Shown here: piece after piece, positions 1 through 5,920 of the stretch
Layout of the letters: each line of letters opens with the position of its first letter
Position numbering within the stretch: position 1 is the first letter of the stretch
Source of the DNA: a virus
Lineage: Duplodnaviria; Heunggongvirae; Uroviricota; Caudoviricetes
Virus record (IMG/VR): IMGVR_UViG_2609459834_000007
Direction: 5' to 3' (one strand)
Length of the DNA: 7,354 nucleotides
Notes under the pieces: generated by a model
Seen by the model: only the letters and a program-made list of their open reading frames with translations
Told to the model about the DNA's origin: nothing
Databases searched by the model: none
Made by a program: the position numbers and the translations under genes

Positions 1-236
1 AAAACGATAACCAACTGGCGATGTTATTCACGCTGGCCAACCTGTTTCGGGCGGACCAAATGATACGTCAGTGGGAGAGATCTCACTAAAAACTGGGGAT
101 AACGCCTTAAATGGCGAAGAAACGGTCTAAATAGGCTGATTCAAGGCATTTACGGGAGAAAAAATCGGCTCAAACATGAAGAAATGAAATGACTGAGTCA
201 GCCGAGAAGAATTTCCCCGCTTATTCGCACCTTCCC

Positions 237-296
237 TGGTGCTTTATGCCTGTGAAGTTTATAATTGTGTACACATAACGAGTACACGAGGTGTTT
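237..296 (+). promoter_or_regulatory. phd-doc promoter/operator region: TATAAT -10-like hexamer followed by two Phd-type palindromic sites
   Basis: TATAAT at 260-265; perfect 10-bp palindrome TGTGTACACA at 266-275 and a related GAGTACAC at 280-287, directly upstream of the phd SD (GAGG ~288-291) and ATG at 297. The phd-doc operon is known to be autoregulated by Phd binding adjacent palindromes over the promoter; the -35 is not obvious. Confidence 0.5.
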
Positions 297-518
297 ATGC
301 AATCCATTAACTTCCGTACCGCGCGTGGCAACCTTTCTGAAGTGCTCAACAATGTTGAAGCCGGGGAAGAGGTTGAAATCACCCGCAGAGGCCGTGAGCC
401 AGCAGTAATTGTCAGCAAGGCTACTTTCGAAGCCTACAAAAAAGCGGCGCTGGATGCTGAATTTGCATCCCTGTTTGACACCCTGGACTCCACCAACAAG
501 GAACTGGTTAACCGATAA
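297..518 (+). CDS. phd: Phd antitoxin (prevent-host-death), 73 aa
   Basis: ORF translation [73 protein letters not shown] matches P1 Phd as I recall it. The track's GTG at 291 lies inside the SD, so ATG 297 is preferred. Stop TAA (516-518) overlaps the doc ATG (518-520). Confidence 0.95.
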
Positions 519-898
519 TGAGGCATATATCACCGGAAGAACTTATTGCGCTTCATGATGCGAATATAAACCGCTACGGCGGCCTGCCAGGCATGTCAGA
601 TCCGGGTAGGGCAGAGGCCATTATCGGGAGAGTTCAGGCCAGAGTTGCCTACGAAGAGATCACCGACCTTTTCGAAGTCTCCGCCACCTACCTGGTGGCT
701 ACGGCGAGAGGGCATATATTCAATGATGCCAATAAGCGTACCGCGCTAAACAGTGCGCTGTTATTTCTACGCCGTAACGGGGTGCAGGTATTTGATTCAC
801 CTGAACTGGCAGACCTTACTGTAGGCGCTGCGACTGGCGAGATATCTGTATCTTCTGTCGCCGACACGTTACGTAGATTGTATGGTTCTGCGGAGTAG
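518..898 (+). CDS. doc: Doc toxin (death on curing; Fic-fold kinase), 126 aa
   Basis: 126-aa [38 protein letters not shown]... matches P1 Doc in sequence and length as I recall it; start overlaps the phd stop (TAATG), the classic toxin-antitoxin coupling. Confidence 0.95.
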
Positions 899-902
899 AT
901 TA

Positions 903-1082
903 ATGGCACGCAAATACAACAAATTGTCCCGTGAAGCGTTAAAGATGCTTCTTGATGGCGTGAGTCGCCGCGAGGTAAAGCAATACCTGGTTGGTAAGCA
1001 AATTGGAGCCAGGACTGCTATTGCTGTGTTATGCCGTCAGGAAATGGTTGTGCTTAAACAGAGAATGCCGGGCAGCAGATAA
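903..1082 (+). CDS. small hypothetical protein, 59 aa; by position possibly the post-doc gene PdcA of P1
   Basis: ATG at 903 preceded by GGAG (892-895) with a 7-nt spacer, 4 nt after the doc stop. The track ORF 882..1082 is the same frame starting inside doc; the SD-supported 903 start is preferred. Basic protein, no domain recognised; synteny with the P1 order doc-pdcA-pdcB-lpa is from memory. Confidence 0.55.
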   Translation: MARKYNKLSREALKMLLDGVSRREVKQYLVGKQIGARTAIAVLCRQEMVVLKQRMPGSR

Positions 1083-1109
1083 AGCCCAATCAGTGATGAA
1101 AGGTGTGAT

Positions 1110-2153
1110 GTGAAAGCCGTAATTACTCCCTTTGTACAAAAAGAGCTTGGCGTCGCCACATTCAAAGTGGATCAGGAAGTCAGAAAGCTGGTGGAGGCTG
1201 GCCGTAAATTTATTATGGAGCCGGTGCCGCGTGAGTTAATCGAGCACATGGACGACGGCCTCGTTGTTTCCGAGCAAACTATGGCAACAAATGAGGCGTT
1301 GCAGCCGTTTTTTAACAGCGATGAACTGTTTCGCCGTATTGGTGGAATTGACGCGCTGGTGGCGTGGTTGCGCAGGAAAGAGGGGCAATGCCAGGCCGCA
1401 GATCGTAGCTGCTGTGACAACCATATTGTCCACGCAGAACGAGACAATAGCGCGGTGTTGTTGTGCTGGCATCACGATAACCATTACCGGATGCGTGGTT
1501 TTAATGAGCTGAAAGAAACGCTGCATAATAATCGCGTTAACTGGATACTGGATGTCGCCCGTCAGGAAATGGGGCTTTCAGATGGCCATGATTTAAGTAT
1601 TCAGGAACTGTGCTGGTGGGCTTTCATGCGCAACATGATGCACCTGATGCCGGAAGAAGTTTGCCGTATATCAATAAATAAGATGAAAGCCGCAACGCAG
1701 GATAGCGGACCTCTGAAAGAGGCGGATATTCGCCCGTATGACGATCGCGCTACAGCATATGTTCAGATGATGGAAGAACGCGCCGCGCCGATGCGTGCAA
1801 AAGTATGCCCTGTGGATGTTGACTCCGACCCTGGCATGGCGCATTTCAAAATACCAAAACTGCAATCGCTAAAATTACCTGAGTACATGGACTTTGTTGC
1901 TTCCCGTCCATGCTGTGGGTGTGGAGCGGCGGGAGCTGGCGCTCACATTACGCCTTATATCGTTCGTCATAGTCGATTATGCGCGCATGACATTTACGCA
2001 ATTCCTCTGTGCCAGTCATGCCAGCGTGATATTGAGCGTGACCGCGATAATTGGGAGAAGACGCACGGTAGGCTGGCGATGCATCAACGATTGTTCTTTG
2101 ATTACGCGCTTGGAGTCGGCGCTATCACAAGTCACTCGTCGAGCGTTAGATAA
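1110..2153 (+). CDS. hypothetical Cys/His-rich protein, 347 aa; by position possibly PdcB of P1
   Basis: Long ORF with GTG start at 1110 preceded by AAAGG (1099-1103). Contains two Cys/His clusters (CCDNHIVH...LLCWHHDNH and [37 protein letters not shown]) resembling degenerate HNH / zinc-finger motifs. Function unknown. Confidence 0.75.
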
Positions 2154-2154
2154 A

Positions 2155-2171
2155 ATTGCTCTAATGTATTG
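2155..2171 (+). promoter_or_regulatory. C1 repressor operator-like site upstream of lpa
   Basis: ATTGCTCTAATGTATTG matches the asymmetric 17-bp P1 C1 operator consensus ATTGCTCTAATAAATTT at 14/17, with the 5' 11 bp exact. It lies immediately after the stop of the 347-aa ORF and upstream of lpa, which in P1 is C1-controlled. Confidence 0.6.
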
Positions 2172-2184
2172 CTATTTCTTTAAT
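2156..2184 (+). promoter_or_regulatory. candidate sigma70 promoter for lpa overlapping the C1 operator
   Basis: -35-like TTGCTC (2156-2161), 17-bp spacer, -10-like TTTAAT (2179-2184). Weak match, but the geometry fits an operator-occluded promoter. Confidence 0.3.
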
Positions 2185-2205
2185 CGAGGGTGTTATATTC
2201 CACGT

Positions 2206-2229
2206 TGATTAGTTGACATGGGCTAATCA
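2206..2229 (+). repeat. inverted repeat TGATTAG-N10-CTAATCA in the lpa leader, spacer containing TTGACATGG
   Basis: 7-bp perfect inverted arms (2206-2212 and 2223-2229) about 13 nt upstream of the lpa start codon; could be a protein-binding site or an RNA hairpin in the 5' UTR. Confidence 0.4.
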
Positions 2230-2241
2230 GTAGGTGACAGG

Positions 2242-2694
2242 ATGTTACTTAACTGGCAGGGACGCCACTTCATGGAAATAAATCACTCACGAATAACATC
2301 GTACGAGATTGCGGATTACATGATCCGCACTAAATCTCTTCTATCAGCGAAAGAACTCGCAGCAATTCTTGAAAAGGAATACCCGCATCTGGATGTCGAT
2401 AAGCGCGATGTTTATCTGCGCTTAAAGGCTATCGCTGTGTCTAAGTATTCGTCTGTTTTGATTGATGACAGTACACGCCCACGTAGATTTCAGATCCACT
2501 CTCTGAATCCTGAATTCTTTCGCCGTAGCCGCGCTCCGCGCCGGTTTGATGAAAAACTCCAGAACGAACTCTATATGACGCAGGACGAAAAGGAACGCCG
2601 GGAGCACCAGCCTTGGGTAATGGCGCGTCAACTTTTCAATAAGGTGGCCCGTCAGCACCGTCATTACGGTAATGCCACATCCGCACGTATCTGA
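2242..2694 (+). CDS. lpa: late promoter activator Lpa (P1 gene 10)-like protein, 150 aa
   Basis: ORF of the expected size sitting between a C1 operator and pacA, as in P1. The start is uncertain: ATG 2242 or in-frame ATG 2272 (MEINHSRITSY...), both with weak SDs. Confidence 0.7.
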   Translation: MLLNWQGRHFMEINHSRITSYEIADYMIRTKSLLSAKELAAILEKEYPHLDVDKRDVYLRLKAIAVSKYSSVLIDDSTRPRRFQIHSLNPEFFRRSRAPRRFDEKLQNELYMTQDEKERREHQPWVMARQLFNKVARQHRHYGNATSARI

Positions 2695-2704
2695 TTGATT
2701 GCTT

Positions 2705-2723
2705 GCCCGTTCCGGGCCTTTTG
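2705..2723 (+). terminator. possible weak intrinsic terminator after lpa
   Basis: GC stem GCCCG/CGGGC (2705-2709 / 2713-2717) with loop TTC, followed by CTTTTG. The stem is short, so at most a partial terminator. Confidence 0.3.
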
Positions 2724-2779
2724 ACATGTGACTTTCGTTACCCTCGCGTCAAAAAGAGTTTTTACGAAAGGAAGCATAA

Positions 2780-3973
2780 GTGACCTGGGACGATCACAAG
2801 AAGAATTTTGCTCGCCTGGCGCGAGATGGTGGTTACACCATCGCACAGTATGCCGCCGAGTTTAATCTTAACCCTAATACTGCACGTCGTTATCTCCGTG
2901 CCTTCAAAGAAGACACCAGGACAGCGGACAGCCGCAAGCCAAATAAGCCAGTCAGGAAGCCACTAAAAAGCATGATCATTGATCACTCTAATGATCAACA
3001 TGCAGGTGATCACATTGCGGCTGAAATAGCGGAAAAACAAAGGGTTAATGCCGTTGTCAGTGCCGCAGTCGAGAATGCGAAGCGCCAAAATAAGCGCATA
3101 AATGATCGTTCTGATGATCATGACGTGATCACCCGCGCCCACCGGACCTTACGTGATCGCCTGGAACGCGACACCCTGGATGATGATGGTGAACGCTTTG
3201 AATTCGAAGCTGGCGATTACCTGATAGATAACGTTGAAGCGCGGAAGGCCGCGCGCGCTATGTTGCGTCGGTCCGGGGCCGATGTTCTGGAAACCACTCT
3301 TCTTGAAAAGTCTCTTTCTCATCTCCTTATGCTGGAGAACGCCAGGGATACGTGTATTCGCCTGGTGCAGGAAATGCGCGATCAGCAAAAAGACGATGAT
3401 GAAGGTACTCCGCCTGAATACCGTATCGCGAGCATGCTAAACAGCTGTTCCGCGCAGATAAGCAGCCTGATCAACACCATTTACAGCATCCGGAATAACT
3501 ATCGAAAAGAAAGCCTGGAGGCGGAAAAGCACGCTTTGTCTATGGGGCAAGCTGGCATTGTTAAGCTGGCATACGAACGAAAGCGTGAAAATAACTGGTC
3601 AGTGCTGGAAGCAGCTGAATTCATCGAGGCGCATGGCGGGAAAGTGCCGCCCCTGATGCTGGAGCAAATCAAAGCCGATCTGCGTGCTCTTAAGACCAAT
3701 ACCGATGATGAGGAAAGGCAAACAGCCGTTGGTGGCCCTTCTCTTGAAGATCTGGACAAAGTTGCGCGAGAACGGGCCGCCAACCGCCGCGCCGATGCCG
3801 CATTGTGGATTGAGCAGCGTAGGGAAGAAATCGCCGATATCGTTGATACAGGCGGTTATGGAGATGTTGATACTGAAGGTGTATCAAACGACCCATGGCT
3901 GGAACAAGACCTGGACGAAGACGAGGAGGAAGACGAAGAAGTTACCCGCAAGCTATACGGGGATGATGATTAA
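2780..3973 (+). CDS. pacA: terminase small / pac-recognition subunit PacA, 397 aa
   Basis: GTG start at 2780 with SD AAGGAAG (2768-2774). N-terminal HTH-like region [39 protein letters not shown], acidic C-terminal tail, 397 aa as for P1 PacA. Contains the pac hexamer repeats. Stop TAA overlaps the pacB ATG (TAATG at 3971-3975). Confidence 0.95.
2973..3131 (+). other. pac packaging site: 4 + 3 TGATCA/G hexamer repeats (each with a Dam GATC) flanking the cleavage region
   Basis: TGATCA at 2973, 2980, 2992, 3007; then TGATCG at 3103 and TGATCA at 3115, 3126. This matches the known ~160-bp P1 pac architecture of four and three hexanucleotide elements flanking the cut sites inside pacA. Confidence 0.85.
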
Positions 3974-4827
3974 TGGCCAGAAGTTGCGTAACGGATCCAC
4001 GTTGGCGCGAGCTGGTGGCGCTATATCGTTATGACTGGATTGCGGCCGCTGATGTTTTGTTCGGCAAAACACCTACCTGGCAGCAGGATCTGATTATTGA
4101 GTCTGTGCAGGAACAGGGTAGCAAGACATCTGTTTCGTCTGGTCACGGTACCGGGAAATCAGACATGACTTCTATCATGATCATGTTGTTCATAATCATG
4201 TATCCCGGTGCCCGAGCCATTATCGTTGCGAACAAAATTCAGCAGGTAATGACCGGTATATTCAAGTACATCAAGATAAACTGGGCTACTGCCACCAGCC
4301 GTTTCCCATGGCTTGCTGATTATTTTGTTCTGACAGAAACCGCTTTCTATGAGGTTACTGGTAAAGGTGTATGGACTGTAGTACCGAAGGGCTTTCGTCT
4401 GGGAAGTGAAGAAGCTCTCGCCGGTGAACACGCAGATCATCTTCTGTATATTATCGATGAAGCCTCCGGTGTCAGTGATAGAGCTTTCGGTATCATCACC
4501 GGTGCTCTTACCGGACAGGATAACCGCATCTTATTACTGTCACAGCCTACACGCCCAAGCCAACGTCTAAGGAGGCTGCCAATATGGCTACTATCCCTAC
4601 CCCAACTCATCCTGAATTTATCTGCCGCTTTTACTCCTGCCAAAAACGTCACTATCACTTCGTTATTGCACCAACAGAAGATGAGGCCCGCTCTCAGCTT
4701 CCTGACGCCCCATGTATTTTCTCTGCCCGTTTTTCCACTGATTCACGCAATTCTCTCAGTTACTGGTGCCTCCCTGTTAACGCTTCTGCTCAGGAGGGAC
4801 TATGAGAACGTCATTAGTCACCCGTGA
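3973..4827 (+). CDS. pacB: terminase large subunit PacB-like ORF; only the N-terminal ATPase part (to ~nt 4560) looks terminase-like, the nuclease domain is absent (probable truncation or disruption)
   Basis: Walker [10 protein letters not shown], Walker [12 protein letters not shown] and motif [10 protein letters not shown] are present. After ...SQPTRPS (~4560) the frame reads low-complexity Leu/Pro/Ser-rich sequence to the stop at 4827 and overlaps SD-supported genes in other frames. A ~195-aa protein is too short for a functional large terminase (P1 PacB is ~490 aa from memory). Confidence 0.6.
4584..4805 (+). CDS. icd: small ORF (73 aa) translationally coupled to the downstream antirepressor gene; architecture resembles P1 immI icd
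   Basis: Strong SD TAAGGAGG (4568-4575) 8 nt before ATG 4584; stop TGA overlaps the next ATG (ATGA at 4802-4805). Protein has Cys/His residues (CRFYSC, HYH). The DNA is pyrimidine-rich and carries anti-SD-like segments, so a leader role cannot be excluded. Identity as icd rests on architecture and size only. Confidence 0.45.
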
Positions 4828-5920
4828 AGAGATGATCGAGGCAATTGAACAGCACATTGCCTGTATCAGTACCAGGGATATACCAGGCGTTATTGCCAAC
4901 TACTTCATGATCACCAAACAACTTTACCGGAGAAAGGACAAGAACTCGGTTCACCGTATCCTGTTGTCTGATATCCGCGAATACCTGCTCGAACAGGGTC
5001 ATCTGAATTACGCAACCGTCGCAGCCGAAGCACGCAAGGAGGCACACAGAATGAAAGCAACTAACGTTAAATCAGAAAAAATTCATGCACCTTCAGTTCA
5101 GGAATCGGAGCTGGTGGTTGTTCAGAATCAGTCTGATGAAATTCCCGTTCTGGAATGGCAGGGAGCGCGTGTAGTGACAACCGAGACTCTTGCTAGAGGG
5201 TATGGGACAGAAACAATCCGTATTCGCCAAAATCATCATGAGAACAAAGTACGCTTTGTTGAAGGGAAGCACTTTTTCAAAGTTGAAGGAGAATCATTGC
5301 GCGAGTTGAAGCACAGAGTAGCTTTAAACTACTCTGTAAAAATTGCTCGCAATGTTCGCTCACTCACCCTCTGGACAGAACGCGGCGCAGCCCGCCACGC
5401 TAAAATGCTCGAAACCGATCAGGCATGGGCATTCTTTGAAAAACTGGAAGACAGCTACTTCCGACAAAAAGAACAGCAACCGGTCGCAATCCCCCAGACG
5501 ATTCCAGAAGCTCTGCGCCTGGCTGCCGAGTTAGCTGAACAAAAGCAACTTCTGGAACAGAAAGCCCACCAGCTAAATCAGCAGCTGGTGGCCGCCGCTT
5601 CTAAAGTCGATTTTGCCGACCGGGTATCAGTAGCTAAAGGGATCCTGATTGGGAATTTTGCAAAGGTCGTTGGACTTAAACAAAATGCGCTGTTTGCCTG
5701 GTTACGGGAGAACGGCATTCTGATAGCGTCCGGAGGCCGTAAAAATGTACCGTTCCAGCAGTACATCAACGCGGGGTATTTCACGGTGAAAGAAGTGGTG
5801 CTGGATGATGAAGATGGCTACCAGATACGGTTGACGCCTCAATTAACGGGTAAAGGCCAGCAGTGGTTGACGCGTAAACTGCTCGATGCTGGTTTGTTAA
5901 AACCGGTGGCGGCTGAATAA
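4802..5920 (+). CDS. ant1: antirepressor-like protein with ORF6N-type N-terminal domain and KilAC/ANT C-terminal domain, 372 aa (Ant1-like)
   Basis: Strong SD CAGGAGGG (4791-4798) before ATG 4802. Central motif [42 protein letters not shown] fits the ORF6N family; C-terminal ...[46 protein letters not shown] fits the phage antirepressor KilAC domain. Predicted ~42 kDa, matching the reported size of P1 Ant1. Confidence 0.8.
5051..5920 (+). CDS. ant2: possible shorter in-frame isoform (Ant2-like, 289 aa) from an internal start
   Basis: In-frame ATG at 5051 (Met84 of the long ORF) preceded by a consensus SD AAGGAGG (5036-5042) with an 8-nt spacer. Predicted ~32 kDa, matching the Ant1/Ant2 pair (42 and 32 kDa) reported for P1 immI. 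Confidence 0.45.
   Translation: MKATNVKSEKIHAPSVQESELVVVQNQSDEIPVLEWQGARVVTTETLARGYGTETIRIRQNHHENKVRFVEGKHFFKVEGESLRELKHRVALNYSVKIARNVRSLTLWTERGAARHAKMLETDQAWAFFEKLEDSYFRQKEQQPVAIPQTIPEALRLAAELAEQKQLLEQKAHQLNQQLVAAASKVDFADRVSVAKGILIGNFAKVVGLKQNALFAWLRENGILIASGGRKNVPFQQYINAGYFTVKEVVLDDEDGYQIRLTPQLTGKGQQWLTRKLLDAGLLKPVAAE

What the first reader, a model, noticed from the sequence alone, without database searches (positions are those of the whole stretch)
4584..4805. Small coupled ORF with pyrimidine-rich sequence and a hairpin that can sequester the antirepressor SD
The 73-aa ORF has an excellent SD and overlaps the downstream ATG, implying that antirepressor translation depends on upstream translation. 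Its DNA is unusually C/T-rich and contains anti-SD-like segments: CTCCTG (4633-4638) and CCTCCCTG (4769-4776) can pair with the ant1 SD CAGGAGGG (4791-4798). The second forms a hairpin with a 14-nt loop (6 Watson-Crick pairs, 1 wobble, 1 mismatch). This suggests the ant1 ribosome-binding site is masked until ribosomes translating the small ORF open it. The pacB frame read-through (from ATG 4681) also encodes a hydrophobic TM-like peptide, so which frame is translated is itself uncertain.
Basis: partly seen in the sequence, partly recalled or inferred. Interest (0 to 1): 0.45.

Follow-up and report, generated by a model that had tools for sequence, protein, structure and literature searches.

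The report
P1-type icd gene before antirepressor
The small ORF is the already known phage P1-type cell-division inhibitor gene icd, which overlaps and is coupled to the antirepressor gene. The proposed hairpin over the antirepressor ribosome-binding site is predicted but is no better than chance for this C-rich RNA, and this copy has lost its antisense-RNA regulator through a 1.2-kb deletion.

Summary
The ORF at 4584-4805 is icd. It scores 41.3 bits on NCBIfam phage_ICD_like (cut-off 25), is 73% identical to P1 Icd, has the same 73 codons, and has the same ATGA overlap with ant1. Comparison of 13 lineages shows the icd frame is under selection (pN/pS 0.27). The pacB read-through frame is not (1.53, with stops in relatives).

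The pyrimidine richness is real: 63% pyrimidine, C/G 2.0, the extreme of the window. It is conserved in all 12 lineages and exceeds what synonymous recoding gives. This fits the Rho-loading tract reported for P1 icd (my recollection of the literature).

The anti-SD/SD hairpin is predicted locally at -9.2 kcal/mol. However, shuffled or recoded upstream sequence masks the ant1 SD equally well. SD complementarity is not above chance in any of 11 lineages, no compensatory changes occur, and D6-like lineages lack the motif. The hairpin is therefore probably a by-product of composition.

It fuses pacB codon 196 to 24 nt upstream of the icd ATG and removes the C4 antisense RNA gene, which is present upstream of icd in all ten relatives with enough upstream sequence. 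This deletion creates the pacB read-through frame.

Verdict: a known system. Interest is low.

The parts
3973..4560 (+). pacB' : the first 196 codons of the large terminase gene, cut off by the deletion
   Evidence: Collinear with pacB of relatives up to window 4560 = L001 5161. PHROG terminase families match only residues 1-196 of the 284-aa ORF.
4560..4561 (.). Junction of a 1210-bp deletion, with 1 nt of microhomology. It removed pacB codons 197 to the end, the intergenic promoters, the c4 RNA gene and the a2 target.
   Evidence: The junction 26-mer occurs only in IMGVR_UViG_2609459791_000005. It is absent from metagenome contigs. None of 523 plasmid records or 516 E. coli records spans it.
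4561..4827 (+). Out-of-frame tail of pacB', in the +1 frame across icd. It stops at TGA 4825-4827, 23 nt past the ant1 ATG.
   Evidence: This frame has pN/pS 1.53 and contains stops in several relatives, and ATG 4681 is not conserved.
4564..4572 (+). Retained b2-type target of C4 antisense RNA (CGUCUAAGG), overlapping the icd SD
   Evidence: Complementary to the loop CCUUGGACG of the C4 RNA of relative L001. The same method recovers the annotated a2 and b2 sites of P1.
4568..4575 (+). icd Shine-Dalgarno sequence, TAAGGAGG
   Evidence: duplex -11.3 kcal/mol, unpaired probability 0.61
4584..4805 (+). icd, encoding the 73-aa host cell division inhibitor Icd-like protein. It carries the private substitution W14C at 4623-4625.
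   Evidence: NF033153 41.3 bits against a cut-off of 25, and phrog_1426 at 2e-43. 73% identical to P1 Icd. pN/pS 0.27 in this frame.
4588..4665 (+). Core of the C-rich, G-poor tract (28 C, 6 G), a candidate Rho-loading (rut) region. All 78-nt windows with C/G of 2.5 or more start between 4535 and 4698.
   Evidence: The skew is conserved in 12 lineages and exceeds synonymous recodings in 10 of 12.
4769..4776 (+). Anti-SD-like CCUCCCUG, formed by the codons for Cys-Leu-Pro-Val of Icd
4791..4798 (+). ant1 Shine-Dalgarno sequence, CAGGAGGG, lying inside the end of icd
   Evidence: duplex -10.8 kcal/mol, unpaired probability 0.13
4802..4805 (+). ATGA: the ant1 start codon overlapping the icd stop codon
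   Evidence: The same overlap occurs in P1 and P7.
4802..5920 (+). ant1, encoding the 372-aa antirepressor
   Evidence: Pfam ORF6N and ANT domains, and phrog_63 at 3.6e-129
5051..5920 (+). ant2, an in-frame internal start with its own SD AAGGAGG at 5036-5042. It begins 83 codons after the ant1 start, as in P1.
   Evidence: P1 ant1 at 789, ant2 at 1038; unpaired probability 0.50

Best explanation
The feature is icd, the small gene that precedes the antirepressor gene in a P1-type immI module (c4 RNA, icd, ant1/ant2). In this lineage of P1-like phage-plasmids the module is an extra copy sitting between pacB and c1.

How intact relatives work:
1. C4 antisense RNA pairs with two short sites around the icd SD and blocks icd translation.
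2. The untranslated icd RNA is C-rich, G-poor and weakly structured. It then serves as a loading site for Rho, which ends transcription before ant.
3. When icd is translated, ribosomes cover this tract. On reaching the UGA of AUGA they hand over to the ant1 start.
4. The G-rich ant1 SD is poorly accessible on its own, because almost any stretch of the C-rich upstream RNA can pair with it. The CCUCC(C)UG/CAGGAGG hairpin is one such pairing, not a dedicated conserved element.

How this contig differs: a 1210-bp deletion has removed the 3' 60% of pacB, the module's promoters, c4 and the a2 target. As a result icd-ant now hangs on the truncated pacB transcript, and the pacB frame reads through icd out of frame.

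Shown here: the gene's identity, the frame under selection, the conserved overlap, C4 upstream of icd in relatives, the deletion, the composition skew beyond codon expectation, and the fact that SD masking is not sequence-specific.

Inferred from published P1 work (my own knowledge, papers not held in the library): translational coupling (Riedel, Heinrich and Schuster 1993, J Bacteriol 175:2833; Heinrich et al. 1994, J Bacteriol 176:4931) and Rho-dependent termination within icd/orfx (Biere, Citron and Schuster 1992, Genes Dev 6:2409).
For: Identity:
- NF033153 phage_ICD_like 41.3 bits against a cut-off of 25, and phrog_1426 over the full length.
- 73% identity to P1 Icd, with the same length and the same ATGA overlap.
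- Annotated as Icd in relatives.
- The module between pacB and c1 has been described for RCS47-like plasmids (PMC6906374).

Frame:
- pN/pS is 0.27 in the icd frame, against 1.53 and 1.15 in the other two.
- Variable columns by codon position are 36, 34 and 57 of 63.

Coupling architecture:
- The overlap or abutment is kept in 8 distant relatives although the downstream gene changes (ANT, Phage_pRha, small ORFs).
- The P1 record notes 'apparently required for expression of ant'.
- The Gifsy-1 orf45-anrP pair, which lies downstream of isrK, was shown to be coupled by a stop-codon insertion (PMC4825925).

C4:
- RF01695 lies about 55 nt upstream of icd in 10 of the 10 relatives that have enough flank. 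It is absent from the window and its contig.

Rut-like tract:
- GC skew reaches -0.38.
- C/G is 1.35-2.0 in icd, against 0.78-1.01 in the next 600 nt, in 12 lineages.
- Native C/G exceeds at least 97% of synonymous recodings in 10 of 12 lineages.
- The fold is weaker than its shuffles, z = +1.47.

Non-specific masking:
- Unpaired probability of the ant1 SD is 0.13 native, 0.16 for shuffles of the same composition, and 0.32 with ordinary coding sequence placed upstream.

Deletion.
Against: - Rho dependence and translational coupling were not measured here. The primary papers could not be read in the held library, so those steps rest on my recollection and on homology.
- The C>G skew is partly explained by Icd's amino-acid make-up: recoded sequences still average C/G 1.2-1.5. 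Two of 12 lineages are not significant. The lineages are related, so they are not independent tests.
- The local hairpin is the dominant predicted structure in contexts up to about 220 nt (probability 0.8-0.99). A real contribution to masking therefore cannot be excluded.
- The deletion is known from one draft contig and could be an assembly error.
Confidence: 0.85

Rival explanations
1. A dedicated hairpin between CCUCCCUG (4769-4776) and the ant1 SD (4791-4798) keeps the ant1 ribosome-binding site closed. It opens only when ribosomes translating icd pass through, and this is the basis of the coupling.
For: - The helix is in the minimum-free-energy fold. It is -9.2 kcal/mol on its own and has probability 0.8-0.99 in local contexts.
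- The ant1 SD is far less accessible than the equally strong icd and ant2 SDs (0.13 against 0.61 and 0.50).
- CCUCC/G-rich SD pairs are also present in the P1, P7 and P0012 lineages. One-sided changes there keep wobble pairs, and 92% of cells are paired.
Against: - Masking is not better than dinucleotide shuffles (35% as low) or synonymous recodings (16% as low).
- The best SD-upstream duplex is no better than shuffles in the window (25% of shuffles as good). In 10 of 11 lineages it is weaker than the shuffle mean.
- There are no compensatory changes.
- D6, P0013 and P0015 encode the same Leu-Pro with CUG/UUG, which breaks the motif.
- Helix probability is 0.09 when the icd leader is in the fold.
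Confidence: 0.15
2. The pyrimidine richness has no RNA-level role. It simply reflects the Pro/Ser/Phe/Leu/Thr-rich Icd protein and local codon usage.
For: Synonymously recoded icd still has C/G of 1.2-1.5, above the 0.8-1.0 of neighbouring genes. The protein sequence therefore contributes much of the skew.
Against: - Native C/G exceeds all 2000 recodings in the window, and at least 97% of recodings in 10 of 12 lineages.
- G at third codon positions is 0.08-0.24, against 0.21-0.32 in the downstream gene.
Confidence: 0.15
3. The frame that matters is the pacB read-through frame or the ATG 4681 frame, which encodes a hydrophobic membrane-like peptide.
For: The frame is open from 3973 to 4827 in the window. 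From ATG 4681 it encodes a hydrophobic peptide.
Against: - The frame is joined to pacB only by the deletion found in this contig alone.
- pN/pS is 1.53, with stops in D6, P0015, P0022, P0029, P0032 and P0033.
- ATG 4681 depends on an Asp codon that most lineages replace.
- Hydrophobic residues are expected from any U/C-rich reading frame.
Confidence: 0.02

Closest known systems
icd-ant1/ant2 of the immI operon of phages P1 and P7 (c4, icd, ant)
   Same: - A 73-codon icd, 73% and 70% identical in protein.
- ATGA overlap with ant1.
- The ant2 internal start 83 codons after the ant1 start.
- A G-rich ant1 SD inside the end of icd, preceded by CCUCC from Leu-Pro codons.
- C4 RNA about 50 nt upstream in intact relatives.
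   Different: - The module sits between pacB and c1 instead of next to sim/kilA-repL.
- The C4 loops and targets have a different sequence (b2 is CGUCUAAGG, against GUUAGUGA in P1), so immunity specificity probably differs.
- In this contig c4, its promoters and the a2 site are deleted.
- Icd carries W14C.
pacB-c1 accessory antirepressor module of RCS47/pTZ20_1P-type P1-like phage-plasmids
   Same: The same position and 93-99% DNA identity. Described in PMC6906374 as two short ORFs and ant inserted between pacB and c1.
   Different: Every other record examined has a complete pacB and the c4 region. None of the plasmid or E. coli records spans the window's junction.
Gifsy-1 isrK-orf45-anrP locus of Salmonella (PMC4825925)
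   Same: A small ORF upstream of an antirepressor gene, with experimentally shown translational coupling and an RNA regulator acting at the small ORF's ribosome-binding site. Rfam isrK and c4-a1b1 hits lie upstream of C4 in relatives of this module.
   Different: In Gifsy-1 the trans RNA activates translation, whereas C4 represses it. I did not test whether orf45 is an Icd homologue.
Translational coupling through a masked downstream ribosome-binding site, as described in general terms in PMC4825925
   Same: The downstream SD lies inside the upstream ORF, is predicted to be paired, and would be opened by elongating ribosomes.
   Different: Here the pairing is not specific, not conserved at the sequence level and not above what the composition predicts.

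Membership tests
Icd (host cell division inhibitor, NCBIfam NF033153 phage_ICD_like) | Sequence match above the curated cut-off | tested here: met
   41.3 bits against a cut-off of 25. phrog_1426 at 2e-43 over residues 1-73. 73% identity to P1 Icd.
Icd (host cell division inhibitor, NCBIfam NF033153 phage_ICD_like) | The reading frame is under purifying selection | tested here: met
   pN/pS is 0.27, against 1.53 and 1.15 in the other frames. There are no stops in 13 lineages.
Icd (host cell division inhibitor, NCBIfam NF033153 phage_ICD_like) | The protein inhibits cell division | not testable with these tools
   Reported for P1 Icd (cited in PMC8201110). The window's copy has W14C at an otherwise invariant Trp.
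P1-type immI operon controlled by C4 antisense RNA | A C4 RNA gene (Rfam RF01695) upstream of icd on the same strand | tested here: not met
   No C4 hit in the window or its contig L101. C4 is present in all 10 relatives with enough flank. The region was lost in the 1210-bp deletion.
P1-type immI operon controlled by C4 antisense RNA | C4 target sites a2 and b2 flanking or covering the icd SD | tested here: inconclusive
   The b2-type site at 4564-4572 is retained. The a2-type site (L001 6345-6351) is deleted.
Translationally coupled gene pair | Stop/start overlap, with the downstream SD inside the upstream ORF | tested here: met
   ATGA at 4802-4805 and the SD at 4791-4798. The arrangement is conserved in P1, P7 and 8 distant relatives.
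Translationally coupled gene pair | Downstream translation depends on upstream translation | not testable with these tools
   Reported for P1 (Riedel et al. 1993; Heinrich et al. 1994; my own knowledge). The GenBank note reads 'apparently required for expression of ant'.
Coupling by a dedicated SD-sequestering hairpin | Predicted stable pairing of the downstream SD | tested here: inconclusive
   Helix probability is 0.8-0.99 in contexts up to 220 nt and 0.09 in longer ones. The SD stays paired with other partners.
Coupling by a dedicated SD-sequestering hairpin | Pairing stronger than expected from the composition or from the protein sequence | tested here: not met
   35% of dinucleotide shuffles and 16% of synonymous recodings mask the SD as well. 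The duplex test is non-significant in all 11 lineages.
Coupling by a dedicated SD-sequestering hairpin | Conservation with compensatory changes across homologues | tested here: not met
   No pairs change on both sides. The motif is absent at the homologous Leu-Pro codons of D6, P0013 and P0015.
Rho-dependent polarity site (rut) inside a regulatory small ORF | A C-rich, G-poor tract of about 80 nt with little secondary structure | tested here: met
   4588-4665 holds 28 C and 6 G, the extreme of the window. GC skew is -0.38. Fold z = +1.47.
Rho-dependent polarity site (rut) inside a regulatory small ORF | The skew is conserved and exceeds what the codons require | tested here: met
   Seen in 12 of 12 lineages (C/G 1.35-2.0). 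It exceeds at least 97% of recodings in 10 of 12.
Rho-dependent polarity site (rut) inside a regulatory small ORF | Rho-dependent termination when the ORF is not translated | not testable with these tools
   Reported for P1 orfx/icd by Biere et al. 1992 (my own knowledge; paper not held).

The most novel reading that the evidence does not exclude
In this one contig, the deletion has rewired an immI-type module.
- icd-ant has lost C4 control and its own promoters.
- It is now read only as the tail of the late pacA-pacB' transcript.
- Ribosomes in the pacB' frame run across the whole of icd and 23 nt past the ant1 start.
- The private W14C change at an invariant Trp of Icd could be a compensatory knock-down of a toxic protein that is no longer repressed.

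More generally, c4-icd may act as a portable cassette of antisense RNA plus translated leader. It would impose Rho-mediated control on whichever antirepressor-type gene is recombined downstream of it.
Probability: 0.2. Interest if true: 0.3.

Novelty: already known. Interest (0 to 1): 0.15.

Why it matters
It matters little as a discovery. icd, its overlap with ant1 and their coupling have been part of the textbook P1 immunity circuit since the early 1990s.

Three results from this check are useful:
1. It gives a clean answer on which frame is selected.
2. It shows that the C>G skew of icd is a conserved feature that extends to synonymous sites across the whole Icd family. This gives a sequence-level rationale for the reported Rho-dependent polarity.
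3. It shows that SD masking in a C-rich leader ORF arises without any dedicated hairpin. This is a caution against reading anti-SD motifs as regulatory elements.

The c4-less deletion derivative is a curiosity. It shows how such accessory immunity modules decay in phage-plasmids.

Tried and rejected
- **Literature.** I looked for the primary P1 papers: Lobocka 2004 (PMC523184), Riedel 1993 (PMC204598) and Heinrich 1994 (PMC196329). None is held. Five full-text searches found no open paper that describes Rho termination in icd or an ant1 SD hairpin. Those points rest on my recollection.
- **Wider family for a covariation test.** tblastn against phages found only P1- and D6-like records. The protein search found only 43 clusters, all at least 65% identical to the query. 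Statistical power is therefore limited to about 9-12 related lineages.
- **Shuffle control of the count of structure pairs.** It is uninformative, because the 3' (SD) side hardly varies.
- **Intrinsic terminators or repeats inside icd.** There are none. Only weak chance-level repeats were found.
- **A non-coding reading and the two alternative frames.** Both were rejected.
- **CTCCTG at 4634-4639 as a second anti-SD.** The motif count in the window is at chance level (4 found, 2.55 expected). It is not a partner of the SD in the folds.
- **The deletion as a common variant.** This was rejected. The junction occurs in a single contig.

Full report
**What the window is.** The window is a segment of a P1-like (Punavirus) phage-plasmid. 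It is 98-99% identical over most of its length to Escherichia phage vB_EcoM-673R5 and to hundreds of E. coli and Salmonella plasmids. The gene order is phd/doc, pdcA/B, lpa, pacA, pacB, a small gene annotated 'Icd protein' or 'host cell division inhibitor Icd-like protein', an antirepressor gene, and c1 on the other strand. An antirepressor module inserted between pacB and c1 has been noted for RCS47 and pTZ20_1P-type plasmids (PMC6906374).

**The observation.**
- The ORF at 4584..4805 (73 aa, ATG) exists.
- Its SD is TAAGGAGG at 4568-4575, 8 nt before the ATG.
- Its TGA overlaps the ATG of the 372-aa ant ORF as ATGA at 4802-4805.
CTCCTG is at 4634-4639, one base off.
- The ORF is 63% pyrimidine with C/G 2.0. 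Only 0.4% (pyrimidine) and 1.4% (C/G) of 222-nt windows on this strand reach these values, and all of them overlap the ORF. GC skew reaches -0.38.

**Identity.**
- The protein passes NCBIfam NF033153 phage_ICD_like (41.3 bits, cut-off 25) and matches phrog_1426 end to end.
- It is 73% identical to P1 Icd and 70% to P7 Icd.
- P1 and P7 icd also have 73 codons and the same ATGA overlap with ant1. The in-frame ant2 start lies 83 codons after the ant1 start in both P1 and the window.
- The downstream protein has ORF6N and ANT domains and matches phrog_63, anti-repressor Ant.

**Which frame is selected.** I collected 13 lineages: the window, RCS47, P1, P7, D6 and eight more distant relatives recovered through the protein search and their encoding contigs.
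- In the icd frame, pooled pN/pS is 0.27. Variable columns number 36, 34 and 57 of 63 at codon positions 1, 2 and 3, and there are no stops.
- The +1 frame, which is the pacB read-through frame, has pN/pS 1.53 and stops in several lineages.
- The +2 frame has pN/pS 1.15 and 34 stops.
- ATG 4681 depends on an Asp codon that most lineages replace.
- The hydrophobic peptide is what any U/C-rich frame encodes.

- Window 236-4560 is collinear with relative L001 837-5161. Window 4560 onwards resumes at L001 6371.
- The window therefore lacks 1210 bp. The lost segment holds pacB codons 197 to the end and the whole intergenic region, including the C4 antisense RNA gene (Rfam RF01695, 75.9 bits in L001; no hit in the window).
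- The junction has 1 nt of microhomology.
- PHROG terminase families match only residues 1-196 of the 284-aa 'pacB' ORF.
- The junction 26-mer occurs in one IMG/VR contig only, IMGVR_UViG_2609459791_000005. That contig is 100% identical to the window over the 3219 nt compared.
- The junction is absent from the metagenome contigs. None of 523 plasmid records or 516 E. coli records spans it.
- C4 lies about 55 nt upstream of icd in all ten relatives that have enough flank.
- The retained 24 nt upstream of the icd ATG still carry a b2-type C4 target, CGUCUAAGG at 4564-4572. It is complementary to the C4 loop CCUUGGACG of relatives. The a2-type site is gone. The same search recovers the annotated a2 and b2 sites of P1.
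- The pacB read-through frame is thus a by-product of this deletion.

**The hairpin.**
- RNAfold places the ant1 SD in a helix with the CCUCC motif. The preferred register is CCUCC/GGAGG plus UG/CA with C4774 bulged. The hairpin alone is -9.2 kcal/mol.
- Its probability is 0.8-0.99 in contexts of up to about 220 nt. It drops to 0.09 when the icd leader is included, although the SD guanines remain paired with other partners.
- The region as a whole folds less well than its dinucleotide shuffles (z = +1.47 for 4560-4830 and +0.18 for 4750-4830).
- The ant1 SD has an unpaired probability of 0.13, much lower than the equally strong icd SD (0.61) and ant2 SD (0.50).
- This masking does not depend on the actual sequence. 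The table gives the unpaired probability of the ant1 SD under each control.

| Upstream sequence | Unpaired probability of ant1 SD | Fraction as low as native |
|---|---|---|
| Native | 0.13 | - |
| Dinucleotide shuffles of the upstream 100 nt | 0.16 | 35% |
| Synonymous recodings of Icd | 0.29 | 16% |
| Ordinary coding sequence from the same window | 0.32 | 6% |

- The same shuffle test on 10 other lineages gave no significant result.
- The best SD-upstream duplex is no better than the shuffles in the window (25% of shuffles as good). In 10 of 11 lineages it is weaker than the shuffle mean.
- On 16 distinct junction sequences of the window, P1 and P0013 types, 92% of cells pair. No pair changes on both sides; there are only three one-sided changes to wobble pairs.
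- The CCUCC arises from conserved Leu-Pro codons. The window, P1 and P0012 use CUC CCN. D6, P0013 and P0015 use CUG or UUG, which breaks the motif.
- My conclusion is that the SD is masked because it is a G-run behind a C-rich, G-poor RNA, not because of a dedicated hairpin.

**The composition.**
- C/G is 1.35-2.0 in icd in all 12 lineages, against 0.78-1.01 in the 600 nt downstream. G at third codon positions is depleted.
- Native C/G exceeds all 2000 synonymous recodings of the window's icd. It exceeds at least 97% of recodings in 10 of 12 lineages.
- The most extreme 78-nt stretch of the whole window is 4588-4665, with 28 C and 6 G.
- A C-rich, G-poor, weakly structured RNA is the signature of a Rho-loading site.
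- From my own knowledge, Biere, Citron and Schuster (1992, Genes Dev 6:2409) reported that when C4 blocks translation of this ORF (then called orfx) in P1, transcription ends prematurely in a Rho-dependent way, so that ant is not transcribed. Riedel et al. (1993) and Heinrich et al. (1994) showed that icd and ant are translationally coupled. I could not read these papers here.
- Support available in the tools is limited to three items. The P1 GenBank note says 'apparently required for expression of ant'. Recent open papers cite these works. The related Gifsy-1 orf45-anrP pair, which lies downstream of isrK, was shown to be coupled by a stop-codon insertion (PMC4825925).

**Mechanism.**
- In intact relatives, C4 binds the a2 and b2 sites around the icd SD. 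icd is then not translated, Rho loads on the naked C-rich RNA, and no ant mRNA is made.
- When icd is translated, ribosomes cover the tract and reinitiate at AUGA. The generally inaccessible ant1 SD limits independent initiation.
- In this contig the module has lost c4, its promoters and the a2 site. It can be transcribed only from upstream, as part of the pac operon, or perhaps from promoter-like sites at 4425-4496. Ribosomes in the pacB' frame would traverse icd and stop 23 nt past the ant1 ATG.
- The element cannot make a complete PacB, so it should be defective for packaging.
- These consequences are inferences.

**Verdict.** The finding is a correct reading of a known gene arrangement. 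The coupling idea agrees with published work on P1. The specific hairpin is not supported beyond chance, and the frame question is settled. Novelty: already known. Interest is low.

Noticed in passing
window 4560/4561 (relative L001 5162-6371): A 1210-bp deletion, found in this contig only, removes the 3' 60% of pacB, the module's promoters, the C4 RNA gene and the a2 target. It fuses pacB codon 196 out of frame to the icd leader. It may be a real defective derivative or an assembly error.
   Followed up: yes
window 4623-4625: Icd has Cys instead of Trp at position 14 (TGG to TGC). Trp14 is invariant in every other Icd relative seen (about 90 loci and 43 protein clusters). The change could be a loss-of-function mutation in a copy that has lost C4 control, or a sequencing error.
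   Followed up: partly
L004, L006, L093, L095, L096, L099, L100, about 950-1035 (upstream of C4): Rfam isrK (RF01394) and c4-a1b1 (RF03163) matches lie directly upstream of C4 in relatives. This links the module to the Gifsy-1 isrK-orf45-anrP locus. I did not test whether orf45 is an Icd homologue.
   Followed up: partly
L093-L100 (relatives of icd): The c4-icd pair is followed by different overlapping genes in different elements: ANT, Phage_pRha, or 62-70-aa ORFs followed by ORF6N proteins. The last 10-20 codons of icd vary with the partner. This suggests recombination breakpoints inside the 3' end of icd.
   Followed up: partly
window 4564-4578 with 4697-4709: The icd leader and SD (CGUCUAAGGAGGCUG) pair with CAGCUUCCUGACG inside icd in both the MFE and the centroid fold of 4560-4830. 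The second segment encodes the conserved SQLPD motif. This is probably chance, and I did not test it in other lineages.
   Followed up: no
window 4425-4454 and 4469-4496, + strand: Promoter-like hexamer pairs (9 of 12 matches) lie inside pacB'. Five sites were found in 3900-5300, against 1.6 expected. Because of the deletion they now sit 90-160 nt upstream of icd.
   Followed up: no
L099 about 1375-1400 (P0032 lineage): In this lineage a CCUCC lies just after the downstream gene's ATG (GGAGGGcgcggccATGagCCUCC). This would enclose the start codon in a hairpin loop, a different geometry from the window.
   Followed up: no
L001 6059-6394 and many viral loci: The icd frame stays open upstream through the c4 RNA gene. 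Gene callers therefore report 114-210-aa 'Icd' proteins in many records. This is an annotation artefact.
   Followed up: partly
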